A DNA stretch of 64,000 nt from a phage, in NCBI GenBank assembly GCA_017864995.1, contig GCA_017864995.1_4097.1; one strand, 5' to 3'. A program made the translations under genes and the position numbers. Under the pieces are notes generated by a model that was not told the origin of the DNA, made no database searches, and worked only from the letters and a program-made list of their open reading frames with translations. Of this stretch, positions 4,355-37,242 are shown piece after piece; within the stretch, counting starts at the first letter, position 1; every line of letters begins with the position of its first letter.

Positions 4355-4382
4355 TTGACTAAATAGTTCAGTACTGTATAAT
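4355..4382 (+). promoter_or_regulatory. sigma70-like promoter (repeated promoter family)
   Basis: TTGACTAAATAGTTCAGTACTGTATAATG: TTGACT - 16 nt - TATAAT. Confidence 0.65.
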
Positions 4383-4413
4383 GTTTGTATCTTAACTTAT
4401 ATGGCAACTTGAT

Positions 4414-4779
4414 ATGTTTAGTGAATATGAAGAAGCAATAACACGCAACCTTGAAGATTCACATAACTTCCAATTTTATAATTGGGATGAACTAATGAAA
4501 TTGTACTTACAGTGGGTTGAAGATGAAGAAACTTCTGAACAACGAACTGTTATGTTAAACATTTCGTTACGTAAAGACCTTAGTTCAATTAGTGTTGAAG
4601 TTATGACATCTTCAACTTATGCAGAAGAAGATCATAATCCCTATGTTTCAGGTACTTCCCCTGTACCAAAGACTGAAGAAGAATATTTTCAAACGAGTAC
4701 TGTACAAGAACCATTATTCACTTATGAGTTCTATAAGTACTTGATTGGCAAATTCAAAAAAATGCGAATTAATTCTTGA
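4414..4779 (+). CDS. hypothetical protein, EE-x-FQ motif family member
   Basis: ORF track; motif TEEEYFQTSTV. Confidence 0.6.
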   Translation: MFSEYEEAITRNLEDSHNFQFYNWDELMKLYLQWVEDEETSEQRTVMLNISLRKDLSSISVEVMTSSTYAEEDHNPYVSGTSPVPKTEEEYFQTSTVQEPLFTYEFYKYLIGKFKKMRINS

Positions 4780-4803
4780 CTAAATAGTTCAGTACTGTAT
4801 AAT
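4776..4803 (+). promoter_or_regulatory. sigma70-like promoter (repeated promoter family)
   Basis: identical TTGACTAAATAGTTCAGTACTGTATAAT copy; overlaps the stop of the upstream gene. Confidence 0.65.
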
Positions 4804-4835
4804 GTTTGTATCTTAATAACAGAAGGTATATTGAA

Positions 4836-5075
4836 ATGAGTAAGTATTTTGTGAGTTATAGTTATAATGTATCACAAAAGGTTCCACGTGGTGATGGAAT
4901 GGGCTGGTCATATGATACATATACTTTAAATGAGTCATGTATCATCGAATTGCAAGAAAAAGACCTTGACATTTTAAAAATCAAACAATATATTCTTGAT
5001 GTTGAATTGGCACATCGTACCGACAACTGTCCAGATGTAAACAACGTCAACATCTTAGTACTAACCAAAGTATAA
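4836..5075 (+). CDS. hypothetical protein
   Basis: ORF track frame; start at ATG 4836 downstream of the promoter. Confidence 0.5.
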   Translation: MSKYFVSYSYNVSQKVPRGDGMGWSYDTYTLNESCIIELQEKDLDILKIKQYILDVELAHRTDNCPDVNNVNILVLTKV

Positions 5076-5084
5076 GATAAAAGT

Positions 5085-5113
5085 ACTTGACTAAATAGTT
5101 CAGTACTGATATA
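5085..5113 (+). promoter_or_regulatory. sigma70-like promoter (repeated family, extended -10 TGATATAAT)
   Basis: TTGACT - 17 nt - TATAAT. Confidence 0.65.
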
Positions 5114-5115
5114 AT

Positions 5116-5470
5116 GAATTCCACAATCAGACGTATATGGTGTAAGTTACGTCGATGTAATCCAGAACAAGATCTCTGGTACTCTAGGAAGTGGTGAATG
5201 TTAACCTAGACGGGTTTGATAATTGGACGATAGGCAATTATTACTTGACTAGCAGGTTTAAACTAGAGGTGACAGTCCTTTACCAAACTGGAAAACCGGA
5301 TGGACTTTTATTTAAAAGGGTAAGGCGTGGAAATATGTTTACAGTAGTTGCTTTTAGTAGCCTGTACGCCCCACGTCAAGGTAGCCGAAAGGCAAGTTAA
5401 AACGGGTGGTTATAAAGCTGAATTAACAGCGGCGTTTAAAAGCGTCACCATCCATTTTTTTAATTAAAGT
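5116..5470 (+). ncRNA. candidate structured non-coding RNA or long leader transcribed from promoter 5085-5113
   Basis: about 350 bp between promoter and next SD with no SD-preceded ORF; GNRA-like CGAAAG hairpin GGTAGCCGAAAGGCAAG; ends in T-run at 5453-5461; ORF-track ORF 5191..5400 has no SD. Confidence 0.3.
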
Positions 5471-5477
5471 TGGTGAT

Positions 5478-5849
5478 ATGAGTGTTAAAGACATTTCAAA
5501 GTATGAAGAGTTTCTTAAATCATTTTTGAATTCAGAATTAACGACCGACCATACCAATAACTGGTGTCAAGATAATCCAGGAATTCGCATTTTCAATGGA
5601 TATGGTGAATCATTTCTTATAAATGACGATGAAATTGTTTTTGAATCATTTGAAGAAATAAAAAGGACAAATAACACTTTACGTGATATAATAAATAGTA
5701 TAAATGCTCAATACATTACCTTCAAGCTAAGTGCTGATGCAGAAGATGAATTTCAGAAAAGCACAGTATATGAAAATGTGTTTCCACATGAATTAAATTC
5801 TGTGATATTTAAAGTGTTGGATAAGGTTTTTTCTGAAAATAGTACTTGA
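5478..5849 (+). CDS. hypothetical protein, EE-x-FQ motif family member
   Basis: ORF track; motif AEDEFQKSTV. Confidence 0.6.
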   Translation: MSVKDISKYEEFLKSFLNSELTTDHTNNWCQDNPGIRIFNGYGESFLINDDEIVFESFEEIKRTNNTLRDIINSINAQYITFKLSADAEDEFQKSTVYENVFPHELNSVIFKVLDKVFSENST

Positions 5850-5874
5850 CTAAATAGTTCAGTACTGATAAAAT
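5846..5874 (+). promoter_or_regulatory. sigma70-like promoter driving tRNA-Ser(GCU)
   Basis: TTGACT - 17 nt - TAAAAT, 6 nt upstream of the tRNA 5' end. Confidence 0.55.
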
Positions 5875-5880
5875 TAATTT

Positions 5881-35232: not shown

Positions 35233-35243
35233 GGAACAACATC

Positions 35244-35519
35244 ATGCGTTCATTTGAAAACTTAATCGGTAAACTTCGCTTACAAGAAATTGAAGCTGAT
35301 GTGAAGGAATTATCTGAAACTAAGAGTTACATTCATTTAGATGAACTGTTTATTAAGTACGGTGAGATTGGTTTTAAGTCATTATTTGTTTTTGTCATGA
35401 AGGTGCATAGTTTAAAGTACTTTGATTTGAGTTCAAAAGACGGACAACCAAATCTGTATTACATGTATTATCTTAAGAACATAGACGAAGCTAATACATT
35501 ATTCTTAGAATATATGTAG
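35244..35519 (+). CDS. hypothetical protein
   Basis: start at ATG 35244 after AAGGAACAACATC. Confidence 0.45.
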   Translation: MRSFENLIGKLRLQEIEADVKELSETKSYIHLDELFIKYGEIGFKSLFVFVMKVHSLKYFDLSSKDGQPNLYYMYYLKNIDEANTLFLEYM

Positions 35520-35530
35520 GGGTAAAAAAA

Positions 35531-35869
35531 ATGGAACAACATTTTGAATTAATTAATAAGGTATCATTTTATGTAGTATCGTTAATTTGGGTGTATTACA
35601 TGTTTTGTTACATTATTGCATTCTTCCGATACACAACCTTGTATCAACGCATATACTACGATGCACCCATTTCATTTATGATGTTCTGTGCATGTACGTG
35701 GGGGATAATTGAAGCACTGGTATGTGGATATAGTACTGACGAATTAAATCTCGTATCGGGGTTGACATTACTAACAATTGCCATTATGATAGCTACTGTT
35801 CCGATATTTTTGCTCTTTAAACTGCTTCATCGTATTGATGAGTGGCGTGATAAAATCCCTGAAAAGTAA
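35531..35869 (+). CDS. small polytopic membrane protein, LR[DN]K[IM]P family, copy 1
   Basis: 3 TM-like segments; C-terminus RIDEWRDKIPEK. Confidence 0.55.
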   Translation: MEQHFELINKVSFYVVSLIWVYYMFCYIIAFFRYTTLYQRIYYDAPISFMMFCACTWGIIEALVCGYSTDELNLVSGLTLLTIAIMIATVPIFLLFKLLHRIDEWRDKIPEK

Positions 35870-35872
35870 GGA

Positions 35873-36220
35873 TTGATAATGATTTTCTACACTAATGCTT
35901 TTGCTTATGCTATTGCATCAATCTACATTGTGTACTTCTTATTTGGTGGAGTACTGTACTTCTTTAAGTACAAAACATTGTTTAACCGAATGTATCCAAA
36001 TCATCCAATTGTTGTAGTACTTTTGATTATTTCTGTTGCTCACATCATTGTAGAAACAATAATGGGTATTAGTGCAGTACATTACAGTCTAGGTACTATT
36101 GTGATTATTACTATGATCATCGCATACATTTTAGTAATGGGTTTTGGTTTATTTGGAAATGTAGCAATGAAATTGTATAATCGAATCAAAACATTACGTG
36201 ATAATCTACCGGAGCGTTGA
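35873..36220 (+). CDS. small polytopic membrane protein, same family, copy 2
   Basis: C-terminus RIKTLRDNLPER. Confidence 0.55.
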   Translation: MIMIFYTNAFAYAIASIYIVYFLFGGVLYFFKYKTLFNRMYPNHPIVVVLLIISVAHIIVETIMGISAVHYSLGTIVIITMIIAYILVMGFGLFGNVAMKLYNRIKTLRDNLPER

Positions 36221-36221
36221 G

Positions 36222-36566
36222 ATGTATAATTTAAATTTAATATCATATATCATAACAACACTGTTTACTTTCTATGCCTTTGTTGGTATACTCCTACTGT
36301 ACTTTAAATTTTATAAACTTTTTGATCGTTTTTATCCGTCATTAGAACATGAATTCTTATTAGTGATGTACATATGTCTAACGTTTATGTCTACATTTTT
36401 CACTGCATCTGATGGTATCATTGGTATTAAAGCTGAAGAACCAAATGGGAGTACGCTTGTTGCCTTTATTCTGGTAGGATTTTTCAGTACTTATATTACC
36501 TTTATTTCAGGATGTACCGTGATTGATTATCTTGTGAAATTACGAGATAAAATGCCAAATCGATAG
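36222..36566 (+). CDS. small polytopic membrane protein, same family, copy 3
   Basis: C-terminus LVKLRDKMPNR; start at ATG 36222. Confidence 0.55.
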   Translation: MYNLNLISYIITTLFTFYAFVGILLLYFKFYKLFDRFYPSLEHEFLLVMYICLTFMSTFFTASDGIIGIKAEEPNGSTLVAFILVGFFSTYITFISGCTVIDYLVKLRDKMPNR

Positions 36567-36575
36567 GGGATTGCT

Positions 36576-36833
36576 ATGTTTGCATTGCGTAATAAAAATA
36601 CAAAAGAGATTCTATGTATCTCAATAGTATGGGATTGTGCAGGAAGTGAAATGATTCTCGAAGAAGGTTCAGGTGATTGTGTTTATGTTGTTCAGGATCG
36701 TCGCGAACTGGAATCATTACTTGACGAATTTAATGCTGGTGGAAATCCTAAAAGTACTCAATTCCCTGAGATCAGGAATCCAGCACCACCAGGCTCTTAT
36801 GAAATTCTACAACTGTGGGAGATGGATAAGTAA
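36576..36833 (+). CDS. hypothetical protein
   Basis: ORF track. Confidence 0.5.
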   Translation: MFALRNKNTKEILCISIVWDCAGSEMILEEGSGDCVYVVQDRRELESLLDEFNAGGNPKSTQFPEIRNPAPPGSYEILQLWEMDK

Positions 36834-37213
36834 TGCGTCAAATGCACAAAGTAACCGAGCTAAACAAGCGTCTGATTAAACAATCAATGTTTGAGGATAA
36901 AGAGTCTTACTATAACTTCAAACGTGCTGTAGAGGCTGCTATCCACATTCAGAAGCTTAAAGATAGTGGATGTATTATTCTCGAAAATGGTTCTGACGTT
37001 GTTACTGATGACTTCAGTGTAGCGTTTGATGTTTCACCTGATGGTTCGCTATCAATGCCACGCTTAGGGACTGGTGACATGACTGTGTGGGTAGGTTTCA
37101 CTATGGGGAATGTACCAGGCACGGTGTATGTAGATGATGCTGAGTTGAAAGAAAGCTTCAAAAACTTATCGCATCTTGAACCACAATACGCACATGAAAT
37201 GAATTTATTTTGA
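36833..37213 (+). CDS. hypothetical protein
   Basis: TAATG overlap. Confidence 0.5.
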   Translation: MRQMHKVTELNKRLIKQSMFEDKESYYNFKRAVEAAIHIQKLKDSGCIILENGSDVVTDDFSVAFDVSPDGSLSMPRLGTGDMTVWVGFTMGNVPGTVYVDDAELKESFKNLSHLEPQYAHEMNLF

Positions 37214-37214
37214 G

Positions 37215-37242
37215 TTGACAAACTCATTCAGTACTGTATAAT
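37215..37242 (+). promoter_or_regulatory. sigma70-like promoter (repeated family)
   Basis: TTGACA - 16 nt - TATAAT with the CAGTACTG spacer motif. Confidence 0.6.

What the first reader, a model, noticed from the sequence alone, without database searches (positions are those of the whole stretch)
4355..37242. Near-identical 29-bp promoter repeated at least 7 times, with a palindromic CAGTACTG core
TTGACTAAATAGTTCAGTACTGTATAATG or close variants occur at 4355, 4776, 5085, 5846, 22036, 22384 and 37215. Conservation of the spacer, not just the hexamers, suggests a regulator-binding site: the palindrome (T)TCAGTACTGA also appears in isolation at 7005-7020, 7129-7144, 9000-9010 and inside the terminator hairpins of the RCC1 array. 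AGTACT may additionally be a restriction or modification target that the phage tolerates.
Basis: seen in the sequence. Interest (0 to 1): 0.4.

Follow-up and report, generated by a model that had tools for sequence, protein, structure and literature searches.

The report
Genome-saturating AGTACT word in jumbo phages
The promoter repeat is real but is a small part of something larger: the 6-base palindrome AGTACT is the commonest hexamer in this giant E. coli phage and its relatives in four genera, is kept by selection even inside genes, and has no known reader.

Summary
The window comes from an Asteriusvirus jumbo coliphage (99% identical to Ecwhy_1). Two copies are identical 29-mers, two are near-identical, and two share only TTGAC…TCAGTACTGTATAATGTT. 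One listed copy lacks the palindrome, and one real copy (26347) was missed.

These promoters hold only 9 of the 187 AGTACT copies. AGTACT is the most frequent hexamer in the window (187 against 21 expected). It is enriched in all three reading frames (145 in genes against 44±6 after synonymous-codon shuffling). It also forms the stems of the RCC1-array terminators.

The enrichment (6-18 fold) recurs in Asteriusvirus, Alcyoneusvirus, Mimasvirus and Eneladusvirus. It is absent from PA5oct, T4, a Vibrio jumbo phage and E. coli. In two genera, synonymous positions inside the word are more conserved than the same codons elsewhere. The word is a strict hexamer with no extended palindrome.

My best reading is that AGTACT is the recognition word of a conserved, two-fold-symmetric phage protein acting genome-wide, with an added role at early promoters. 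A clade-restricted PD-(D/E)XK nuclease (14015-14599) is only a weak candidate. I found no prior description.

The parts
371..62827 (.). All 187 AGTACT copies (2.9 per kb), spread over the whole window. About 145-153 lie inside genes in all three frames and 34-42 lie outside genes, depending on the gene model.
   Evidence: Placement is slightly more even than Poisson, and the longest gap is 1635 bp.
4355..4383 (+). Early sigma-70 promoter: TTGACT, 16-nt spacer, TATAAT. AGTACT lies at 4370-4375, 1 nt upstream of the -10.
4776..4804 (+). Identical copy of the 29-mer promoter, with AGTACT at 4791-4796.
5082..5115 (+). Promoter with two AGTACT copies 20 bp apart. One abuts and overlaps the -35 (5082-5087) and one lies in the spacer (5102-5107). 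The -10 is at 5110-5115. It is followed by about 350 nt with no convincing ORF.
   Evidence: No Rfam family was found downstream.
5841..5874 (+). Promoter with two AGTACT copies (5841-5846 and 5861-5866) and a TAAAAT -10. It lies directly upstream of tRNA-Ser(GCU) at 5881-5970.
22036..22063 (+). Promoter TTGACA, 16-nt spacer, TATAAT, with AGTACT at 22051-22056.
26347..26374 (+). Promoter TTGACA, 16-nt spacer, TATAAT, with AGTACT at 26362-26367.
37215..37242 (+). Promoter TTGACA, 16-nt spacer, TATAAT, with AGTACT at 37230-37235.
22384..22412 (+). It has GTACTG after the -35 and CAGTA fused to the -10.
7007..7020 (.). Isolated 14-bp palindrome ATTCAGTACTGAAT in the non-coding tRNA region. A 16-bp one lies at 7127-7142 and a 13-bp one at 8997-9009.
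   Evidence: Across all sites, such extensions are no more frequent than in flank-swapped controls.
44798..44822 (.). Bidirectional terminator between convergent genes: ATCCAGTACT-ATAAT-AGTACTGGAT, flanked by T/A runs.
51862..51881 (-). Intrinsic terminator of the RCC1-like array: GCCAGTACT-TG-AGTACTGGC followed by a T-run.
53085..53104 (-). Terminator of the same design (GCCAGTACT-TA-AGTACTGGC).
54349..54368 (-). Terminator of the same design.
55576..55595 (-). Terminator of the same design.
56828..56846 (-). Terminator of the same design (GCCAGTACT-C-AGTACTGGC). Degenerate versions with one intact copy lie near 47967, 50584, 60376, 61630 and 62822.
14015..14599 (+). Weak candidate reader: a 194-aa PD-(D/E)XK-type nuclease behind a perfect sigma-70 promoter at 13892.
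   Evidence: E64, D98, E107-x-K109 and Q127 are invariant in 28 homologues. AF2 model: pLDDT 89. The weak best PDB neighbours are type II restriction enzymes and other PD-(D/E)XK nucleases. It occurs in 72 phage records, all of this clade, at 64-71% identity between genera. The link to AGTACT is inference only.
18673..19638 (+). Phage-encoded sigma-70-family factor (regions 2 and 3 detected). Its homologues mark the same clade.

Best explanation
AGTACT is a genomic signature word of the RaK2-like jumbo phages (Asteriusvirus, Alcyoneusvirus, Mimasvirus, Eneladusvirus). It is a strict 6-bp palindrome held by natural selection at about 2-5 copies per kb over the whole genome.

Most likely it is the recognition site of a conserved, two-fold-symmetric, phage-encoded protein that reads or modifies double-stranded DNA. 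The word is about 50-85 times denser in phage DNA than in host DNA, so such a protein would act on, or mark, essentially every phage gene while hardly touching the host chromosome.

A minority of copies sit in a fixed register in one family of strong sigma-70 early promoters: at -19 to -14, and in some also abutting the -35 about two helical turns upstream. Occupancy or modification there would change initiation. Other copies have been recruited into positions of free sequence, such as terminator stems.

Shown: the enrichment, its DNA-level nature, purifying selection with turnover, conservation across the clade, the strict hexamer specificity and the promoter register.

Inferred: that a protein reader exists, its identity, and what it does.
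For: 1. Scale. AGTACT has 187 copies against 20.9 expected and is the top hexamer. CAGTACTG has 39 against 1.06.

2. DNA-level, not protein-level. Genes hold 145 copies against 44.2±5.6 (maximum 62) with proteins and codon usage fixed. All three frames are enriched (75, 25 and 45 observed against 27, 6 and 11). Ser-Thr and Val-Leu dipeptides are themselves about 1.5-fold enriched. Non-coding density is higher still. The phAPEC6 structural region gives 77 against 22.4±4.4, spread over nearly all genes in unique contexts.

3. Clade trait, observed against expected: RaK2 119/12.0, GAP32 253/13.8, CBB 266/15.0, XbC2 81/7.4, pEa_SNUABM_50 84/6.9, phAPEC6 122/12.7 and 95/16.2. Outside the clade: PA5oct 4/13.4 and 1/11.3, T4 12/8.8, Vibrio phage 5/9.3, E. 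coli 3/4.8.

4. Selection, replicated in two genera.
- Window against phAPEC6: sites intact 72% against 46% for all hexamers. Wobble positions inside the word are 91.8% conserved against 76.9% for the same codons elsewhere (p=2.7e-5). 61 sites are shared, 24 are window-only and 18 are phAPEC6-only.
- CBB against GAP32: 62% against 36%, and 83.3% against 70.1% (p=1.4e-4).

5. Strict, symmetric word. One-mismatch variants are enriched at most 2.4-fold. The palindrome does not extend beyond the hexamer more than in flank-swapped controls, and the flanks are symmetric with respect to the coding strand.

6. Fixed promoter register, and spacer homology between genera.

7. Terminator stems are built from two copies.

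8. Placement is slightly more even than random in five loci, with no gap over 2 kb in about 236 kb.
Against: No reader has been identified.
- Pfam finds no DNA-binding regulator among 89 window proteins.
- The Xre-type HTH next to the sigma factor in XbC2 has no counterpart in the window.
- The phage methyltransferases examined are a C5 (Dcm-type), a Dam-family N6A and a generic enzyme, all of unknown specificity.
- The PD-(D/E)XK candidate belongs to a fold that is common among unrelated phages.
- A Vibrio phage with a 33%-identical homologue lacks the enrichment.

Other weaknesses:
- A 6-bp site is short for a classical regulator.
- Biased repair could mimic selection, although the expected depletion of AGTATT/AATACT is absent.
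- Only samples of 25-64 kb per genome were analysed.
- There are no experimental data for these phages on binding, methylation at this site or promoter use.
Confidence: 0.5

Rival explanations
1. Operator only. AGTACT is the core of the binding site of a regulator of early promoters, and the other copies are incidental.
For: The register AGTACT-N1/2-TATAAT is fixed in 6 window promoters and 13 GAP32 sites. A second copy lies 20-22 bp upstream, flanking the -35, which is typical geometry for cooperative dimers. The spacer is homologous between genera.
Against: Promoter copies are 4-10% of sites, and only 6 of 30 strong promoters carry the word. The intragenic excess is 3.3-fold over the codon-shuffle expectation in all frames, with conserved synonymous positions, so those copies are not incidental. 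The palindrome does not extend into an operator-length site. No regulator was found.
Confidence: 0.13
2. AGTACT is simply the target of a phage DNA methyltransferase (or a tolerated ScaI-type restriction site). Its abundance has no function of its own.
For: A strict 6-bp palindrome with almost no flank information is the hallmark of type II enzymes. These phages encode several methyltransferases (Sharanji paper). RaK2 DNA is reported to be methylated (PMC3622015).
Against: Being a modification target does not explain a 6-18-fold excess or purifying selection on synonymous positions. Every other signal in the genome is avoidance of palindromes. There is no deamination footprint (AGTATT at 1.46, AATACT at 0.97). 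None of the methyltransferases examined could be linked to the site.
Confidence: 0.12
3. Replication signal. AGTACT is a preferred priming or initiation site for the phage primase or recombination-dependent replication, present on both strands because it is palindromic.
For: The distribution is genome-wide, strand-symmetric and roughly even at 200-500 bp spacing. It is conserved across a clade that shares a T4-like replication module (CBB paper).
Against: Known primases read trinucleotide cores that need no enrichment (general knowledge). Nothing links the fixed promoter register or the terminator use to priming. PA5oct shares the replication core yet is depleted in the word.
Confidence: 0.06
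4. RNA-level motif. AGUACU in transcripts is bound or cut by a phage or host factor.
For: A palindrome yields the same RNA word whichever strand is transcribed. Nearly all sites are transcribed.
Against: The flanks are symmetric about the dyad relative to the coding strand (C at -1 in 43 and G at +1 in 57 of 115 sites). The word sits in promoter spacers and upstream of -35 hexamers, which are not transcribed from those promoters. UAC-type toxin cleavage sites should be avoided rather than enriched (general knowledge).
Confidence: 0.04
5. By-product of amino-acid or codon usage, of repeated elements, or of a mutational or repair bias. There is no function.
For: AGT, ACT and GTA are the favoured Ser, Thr and Val codons. 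The max-order Markov expectation absorbs the excess into AGTAC and GTACT.
Against: The synonymous shuffle and the codon-order shuffle both fail to reproduce the count (145 against 44 and 26). Density is highest in non-coding DNA. Contexts are unique and flanks carry little information. The Vsr-type neighbours are not depleted. The identical word is top-ranked in four genera whose DNA does not align. The codon preference is more likely a consequence of the word than its cause.
Confidence: 0.03

Closest known systems
DNA uptake sequences of Neisseria (DUS) and Pasteurellaceae (USS)
   Same: A short word at roughly 1-5 copies per kb, many-fold over expectation. It is tolerated in all reading frames and shapes the encoded peptides. 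Inverted pairs serve as transcription terminators. It is conserved across related genera, with turnover of individual sites.
   Different: DUS and USS are asymmetric 9-12-mers read by the competence machinery of bacteria during DNA uptake. Here the word is a strict 6-bp palindrome in virulent phages, where uptake is irrelevant, and it also holds a fixed position in promoters.
Chi (crossover hotspot instigator) sites read by RecBCD or AddAB
   Same: An over-represented word that works as a mark of 'self' DNA and changes the behaviour of a nuclease or helicase. There is a large density contrast between self and foreign DNA.
   Different: Chi is an asymmetric 5-8-mer with strong orientation bias relative to replication, read as single-stranded DNA. 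AGTACT is palindromic, 10-20 times denser than Chi, and no cognate nuclease is known. The self-mark function is a hypothesis here.
Stoperators of cluster A mycobacteriophages (L5 gp71 repressor sites)
   Same: The same sequence serves as the operator at an early promoter and is dispersed in many copies over the phage genome.
   Different: Stoperators are 13-bp asymmetric sites, about 25-35 per genome, mostly in intergenic gaps, oriented with transcription, and belong to temperate phages. AGTACT is a 6-bp palindrome, mostly intragenic, with hundreds to over a thousand copies extrapolated per genome, in virulent phages. No repressor is known.
Type II restriction-modification recognition sites (ScaI-type, AGTACT)
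   Same: The same strict 6-bp palindrome with little flank information, a specificity typical of homodimeric PD-(D/E)XK enzymes and their methyltransferases.
   Different: Phage genomes normally avoid such sites, as this one does for about 24 other palindromes. Here the site is the most abundant hexamer and is under positive maintenance. No cognate enzyme pair has been identified.
Sigma-70 early promoters of T4- and T5-like phages with conserved non-hexamer positions
   Same: Near-consensus -35 and -10 hexamers with a 16-17-nt spacer, multiple copies in the early region, and conservation beyond the hexamers.
   Different: The conserved spacer element is a palindrome that is also the genome's signature word. 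It occupies the position of the extended -10 (TGn) element without matching it in GAP32.

Membership tests
Sigma-70 (RpoD) dependent promoter | TTGACA-like and TATAAT-like hexamers separated by 16-18 nt, upstream of a gene on the same strand | tested here: met
   4355, 4776, 5087, 22036, 26347 and 37215 score 11-12 of 12; 5846 scores 10 of 12. All lie upstream of + strand genes or a tRNA.
Sigma-70 (RpoD) dependent promoter | Transcription starts 6-8 nt downstream of the -10, and early in infection | not testable with these tools
   No transcript data for these phages were available. The GAP32 record annotates equivalent sites as promoters by consensus only.
Repressor/activator operator | Dyad-symmetric site overlapping core promoter elements | tested here: met
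   AGTACT lies at -19 to -14. In some promoters a second copy abuts the -35, 20-22 bp upstream.
Repressor/activator operator | Sites confined to regulatory regions, and a recognisable site length of about 12-20 bp | tested here: not met
   More than 75% of copies lie inside genes. The palindrome does not extend beyond 6 bp more than in flank-swapped controls.
Repressor/activator operator | Cognate DNA-binding regulator encoded by the phage | tested here: inconclusive
   No HTH or RHH family was found among 89 window proteins. The XbC2 HTH_37 protein has no window homologue. The rest of the roughly 350-kb genome was not examined.
Type II restriction-modification target | Strict 4-8-bp palindrome with sharp loss of signal for one-mismatch variants | tested here: met
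   The exact word is enriched 9-fold and its variants 0.4-2.4-fold. There is no flank extension.
Type II restriction-modification target | Cognate methyltransferase and/or endonuclease of that specificity is encoded | tested here: inconclusive
   The methyltransferases found are C5 Dcm-type, Dam-family and generic, with unknown specificity. The PD-(D/E)XK nuclease at 14015-14599 has invariant catalytic residues but unknown specificity.
Type II restriction-modification target | Site frequency in a phage at or below expectation (avoidance) | tested here: not met
   It is the most abundant hexamer, at 6-18 times expectation.
Uptake-sequence-like / Chi-like genomic signature word | Genome-wide over-representation maintained by selection, tolerated in all frames, shared by related taxa | tested here: met
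Uptake-sequence-like / Chi-like genomic signature word | Asymmetric word with orientation bias, and a known machinery that reads it | tested here: not met
   The word is palindromic, and no reader is known.
Mycobacteriophage stoperators | Asymmetric 13-bp repressor sites, intergenic, oriented with transcription, in a temperate phage | tested here: not met
   The word is a 6-bp palindrome and mostly intragenic. The clade is described as virulent in the papers read.

The most novel reading that the evidence does not exclude
AGTACT is a sequence-encoded 'self' mark. These jumbo phages do not build a phage nucleus and do not replace a base in their DNA. They would distinguish their own DNA from the host chromosome by the roughly 50-85-fold higher density of one strict palindrome.

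That palindrome would be read by a conserved early phage protein, for example the clade-restricted PD-(D/E)XK nuclease at 14015-14599 or a partner of it. The protein would spare, protect, organise or preferentially express DNA that carries the word every few hundred base pairs. DNA lacking the word, meaning the host or competing elements, would be shut off or degraded.

This would be a phage counterpart of Chi- or DUS-type self-recognition, and a third strategy alongside base modification and compartmentalisation.
Probability: 0.2. Interest if true: 0.9.

Novelty: new variant of a known kind. Interest (0 to 1): 0.72.

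Why it matters
If a dedicated reader exists, this clade of 350-kb phages uses a sequence word, rather than a modified base or a protein shell, to give its genome a global identity. That would bear on three questions: how non-nucleus jumbo phages take over the cell, how they tell their own DNA from the host's, and how early transcription is switched.

The word is also practically useful.
- It is a one-line diagnostic for the clade in metagenomes.
- It is a caution for synthetic recoding of these phages.
- It is a ready handle for pull-downs.

It also shows that DNA-level selection shapes codon choice, dipeptide content (Ser-Thr, Val-Leu) and possibly the phage's tRNA set.

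Tried and rejected
- **Vsr-like repair drive.** Rejected: the deamination neighbours AGTATT and AATACT are not depleted.
- **Codon or dipeptide artefact.** Rejected by two shuffles and by the structural-region replicate.
- **Repetitive protein motif in the structural region.** Rejected: every context is unique and sites are spread over nearly all genes.
- **Extended operator.** Rejected by the flank-swap control.
- **Helical phasing or periodic arrays beyond the 20-22 bp promoter pairs and about 8 bp terminator pairs.** Nothing found.
- **Strong regular spacing.** Only mild evenness.
- **HTH regulator next to the sigma factor (XbC2_536).** No homologue in the window.
- **Methyltransferases as readers.** The families were identified but no specificity could be inferred.
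- **Co-variation test with the Vibrio phage homologue.** No enriched palindrome there, so it is uninformative.
- **Host factors recalled from memory with related half-sites (TrpR GNACT, LexA CTG/CAG, ArgR, MetJ).** The site geometries do not fit. This was not tested further.
- **Literature.** Seven searches and about ten papers on the clade gave no mention of the word.

Full report
**Source.** The window is from an Asteriusvirus-type jumbo coliphage. Bases 4000-12000 match Escherichia phage Ecwhy_1 at 99% identity and phAPEC6, G17, Sharanji and 121Q at about 88%. It is 35% G+C. Genes run on the + strand up to about 44.8 kb. A minus-strand array of RCC1-like paralogues follows.

**Check of the observation.** The 29-mer TTGACTAAATAGTTCAGTACTGTATAATG occurs exactly at 4355 and 4776.
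- 5087 has one extra spacer base, and 5846 has TAAAAT as its -10.
- 22036 and 37215 share only the -35 and TCAGTACTGTATAATGTT.
- 22384 is a strong promoter without an intact AGTACT.
- A further member at 26347 was missed.
- The isolated palindromes near 7011, 7132 and 9001 and the terminator hairpins are real.
- CAGTACTG occurs 39 times against 1.06 expected. AGTACT occurs 187 times against 20.9, and no shuffle came close.

**The larger phenomenon.**
- AGTACT is the single most frequent hexamer in the window, ahead of every A/T-only word.
- Only GTAC flanked by A and T is affected. GGTACC and CGTACG have zero copies and TGTACA is at expectation.
- The flanks show only a mild, symmetric preference for C at -1 and G at +1.
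- One-mismatch variants are enriched 0.4-2.4 fold against 9 fold for the exact word.
- The palindrome extends beyond the hexamer no more often than when left and right flanks of different sites are swapped.
- The unit is therefore a strict 6-bp palindrome.

**Not a coding artefact.**
- Roughly 145-153 copies lie in genes, in all three frames: AGT-ACT 75, xAG-TAC-Txx 25 and xxA-GTA-CTx 45.
- Shuffling synonymous codons within each gene gives 44.2±5.6 copies (maximum 62 of 300). Shuffling codon order gives 26.
- AGT-ACT encodes 75 of 153 Ser-Thr dipeptides, against 24 expected from codon usage.
- Ser-Thr and Val-Leu dipeptides are about 1.5-fold over-represented while Thr-Ser and Leu-Val are not. 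The DNA word therefore shapes protein sequence.
- Density is higher in non-coding DNA (4.3 against 2.7 per kb).
- In a structural-gene region of phAPEC6, sites occur in almost every gene at 1-3 per kb in unique contexts: 77 against 22.4±4.4.

**A clade trait.** Observed and expected copies in each sample:

| Genome sample | Observed | Expected |
|---|---|---|
| phAPEC6, early region | 122 | 12.7 |
| phAPEC6, structural region | 95 | 16.2 |
| RaK2 | 119 | 12.0 |
| GAP32 | 253 | 13.8 |
| CBB | 266 | 15.0 |
| Xanthomonas phage XbC2 | 81 | 7.4 |
| Erwinia phage pEa_SNUABM_50 | 84 | 6.9 |
| PA5oct, 1-50 kb | 4 | 13.4 |
| PA5oct, 100-140 kb | 1 | 11.3 |
| T4 | 12 | 8.8 |
| Vibrio phage 2.275.O | 5 | 9.3 |
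| E. coli K-12 | 3 | 4.8 |

- In each enriched genome AGTACT is the top hexamer, with z-scores of 29-65.
- Phage density is therefore about 50 times (window) to 85 times (GAP32) that of the host sample.
- These genera share only 33-39% amino-acid identity in their sigma factor, and their DNA does not align. The identical word must be maintained by something conserved.

**Selection on individual sites.**
- Window against phAPEC6 (84.6% identity over 29 kb): 72% of AGTACT sites are intact, against 46% of all hexamers.
- Wobble positions inside the word are conserved 112 of 122 times (91.8%), against 76.9% for the same codons elsewhere (Fisher p=2.7e-5). 61 sites are shared, 24 are window-only and 18 are phAPEC6-only.
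- The test replicates in Mimasvirus (CBB against GAP32, 81% identity): 62% against 36%, wobble 83.3% against 70.1% (p=1.4e-4), with 57 shared, 37 CBB-only and 31 GAP32-only sites.
- The picture is weak purifying selection per site with turnover, which amounts to selection on density.
- A Vsr-type repair drive is unlikely because AGTATT and AATACT are not depleted.
- Placement is slightly more even than random. The CV of the gaps is 0.82-0.92 against about 0.99 simulated in five loci. The largest gap is never above the simulated median, and there is no gap over 2 kb in about 236 kb.

**Special positions.**
- Promoters.
  - AGTACT lies exactly 1-2 nt upstream of TATAAT in 7 window cases (6 of them promoters) and 13 GAP32 cases. 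GAP32 has a second peak at 21-23 nt for a copy abutting the -35.
  - The design AAAAGTAC|TTGACA…AGTACT-N-TATAAT is shared by window 5082 and 5841 and by at least 9 GAP32 promoters.
  - The spacers are homologous between genera (TTGACTAAATAGTTC… against TTGACAAAATGGTTAG…).
  - Only 6 of 30 strong window promoters and 7 of 21 in GAP32 belong to this family.
- Terminators. In the RCC1 array the intergenic terminators read GCCAGTACT-NN-AGTACTGGC followed by a T-run. Six keep two intact copies and about five have one copy degenerated. The bidirectional terminator at 44798-44822 has the same design.
- This use of the word wherever sequence is free is what DUS and USS do in Neisseria and Haemophilus (my own knowledge).

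**Search for a reader.**
- Pfam recognises little in 89 window proteins: a sigma-70-family factor (18673-19638), a DenV-like glycosylase, a STAND/AAA ATPase and the RCC1 repeats. It finds no DNA-binding regulator.
- An Xre-type HTH beside the sigma gene of XbC2 has no window homologue.
- The methyltransferases examined are a C5 Dcm-type (phAPEC6 gp123), a Dam-family N6A enzyme (GAP32_068/CBB_72) and a generic class I enzyme.
- One protein stood out for its conservation. ORF 14015-14599 (194 aa, PHROG 16175, function unknown) is 64-71% identical between genera, about twice the value for the sigma factor.
  - It occurs in 72 phage records, all of this clade, plus one 33%-identical Vibrio homologue.
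  - It carries an invariant E…D…E-x-K…Q signature, a weak NOV_C/DUF3883 hit and a confident AF2 model (pLDDT 89).
  - Its best, though non-significant, PDB neighbours are type II restriction enzymes (HincII, ThaI, Eco15I-N) and other PD-(D/E)XK nucleases.
  - The fold is widespread among unrelated phages, and hundreds of clade-specific genes share its distribution. It is a lead, not a finding.

**Interpretation.** The data fit a strict palindromic word read on double-stranded DNA by a two-fold-symmetric, clade-conserved protein, with selection for genome-wide density and an extra role at one family of early promoters.
- The function could be self-marking against a nuclease or a shut-off factor, counter-silencing or organisation of AT-rich DNA, an epigenetic mark, or global transcription control. 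These cannot be separated with sequence alone.
- Sharanji, a close relative, forms no phage nucleus, and its DNA is dispersed in the cell (PMC11895373).
- fEgEco12 DNA is cut normally by many enzymes (PMC13070987).
- Sequence-based self-recognition is therefore at least plausible.

**Prior knowledge.** Papers on phAPEC6, Sharanji, fEgEco12, CBB, RaK2 and PA5oct, a jumbo-phage comparative review, and full-text searches for AGTACT with phage terms do not mention the word. CBB and GAP32 promoter predictions list RpoD-like promoters without noting it. The library lacks many subscription papers, including the GAP32 paper, so absence of a description is not proof.

Noticed in passing
whole window: Extreme avoidance of other palindromes. 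24 G/C-containing palindromic hexamers have zero copies (for example CCATGG 0 against 10.3, TGGCCA 0 against 8.7, GGTACC 0 against 7.8). GATC is at half its expectation (93 against 180). GAP32 does not share the GATC depletion.
   Followed up: partly
window 28126, 31720, 34763, 39387, 41455 (also 19643); L008 6562, 10657, 17536, 17853, 18649, 20801, 23552: A second conserved promoter family: terminator-promoter fusions reading AAAAGGG-TTGACT-TCGG-TCAaCCC-TTTTTGC-TATAAT. The -35 hexamer forms part of a G+C-rich hairpin and the T-run serves as the spacer. The design is shared by the window and GAP32.
   Followed up: partly
window 14015-14599 (+): A 194-aa PD-(D/E)XK nuclease of unknown function behind a perfect sigma-70 promoter (13892). 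It is one of the most conserved proteins between genera of this clade and is restricted to it. Its catalytic residues are invariant.
   Followed up: yes
window 3662-7734: Six tRNA genes: Ser(UGA), Ser(GCU), Met, Asn and two Thr(UGU). Ser(GCU) reads the AGU codon that the word makes the commonest Ser codon, and it is driven by one of the AGTACT promoters (5846). AGTACT also sits immediately before tRNA-Ser(UGA), at 3656.
   Followed up: partly
window 18673-19638: The phage sigma-70-family factor is only 59% identical to that of phAPEC6, G17 and Sharanji, although the flanking DNA is 82-90% identical. Two divergent sigma alleles circulate within Asteriusvirus. Pfam detects regions 2 and 3 but not region 4.
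   Followed up: no
window 5116-5470: About 350 nt downstream of the strong promoter at 5087 have no convincing ORF (only a 69-aa GTG ORF) and no Rfam match. This may be an unannotated non-coding RNA.
   Followed up: partly
window 44828-63965 (-): An array of about 14 paralogous RCC1-repeat proteins (264-462 aa), each followed by the AGTACT-stem terminator. Relatives annotate them as 'DNA condensation protein'. GAP32_001 is a homologue.
   Followed up: no
L005, L012 (PA5oct): In the related Pseudomonas phage PA5oct the same word is under-represented (4 against 13.4 and 1 against 11.3), the opposite of the enterobacterial clade.
   Followed up: no
window against L009 alignment: Where an AGTACT site is present in only one of the two phages, the other often has AGTTCT or AGAACT (7 of 24 and about 2 of 18). 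That change is conservative or synonymous in every frame.
   Followed up: partly
window 12741-13898 (-) and 11881-12696 (+): Two genes matching PHROG 'virion structural protein' families are embedded in the early-gene region. One is on the opposite strand and is conserved next to the nuclease gene in XbC2 and the Erwinia phage.
   Followed up: no
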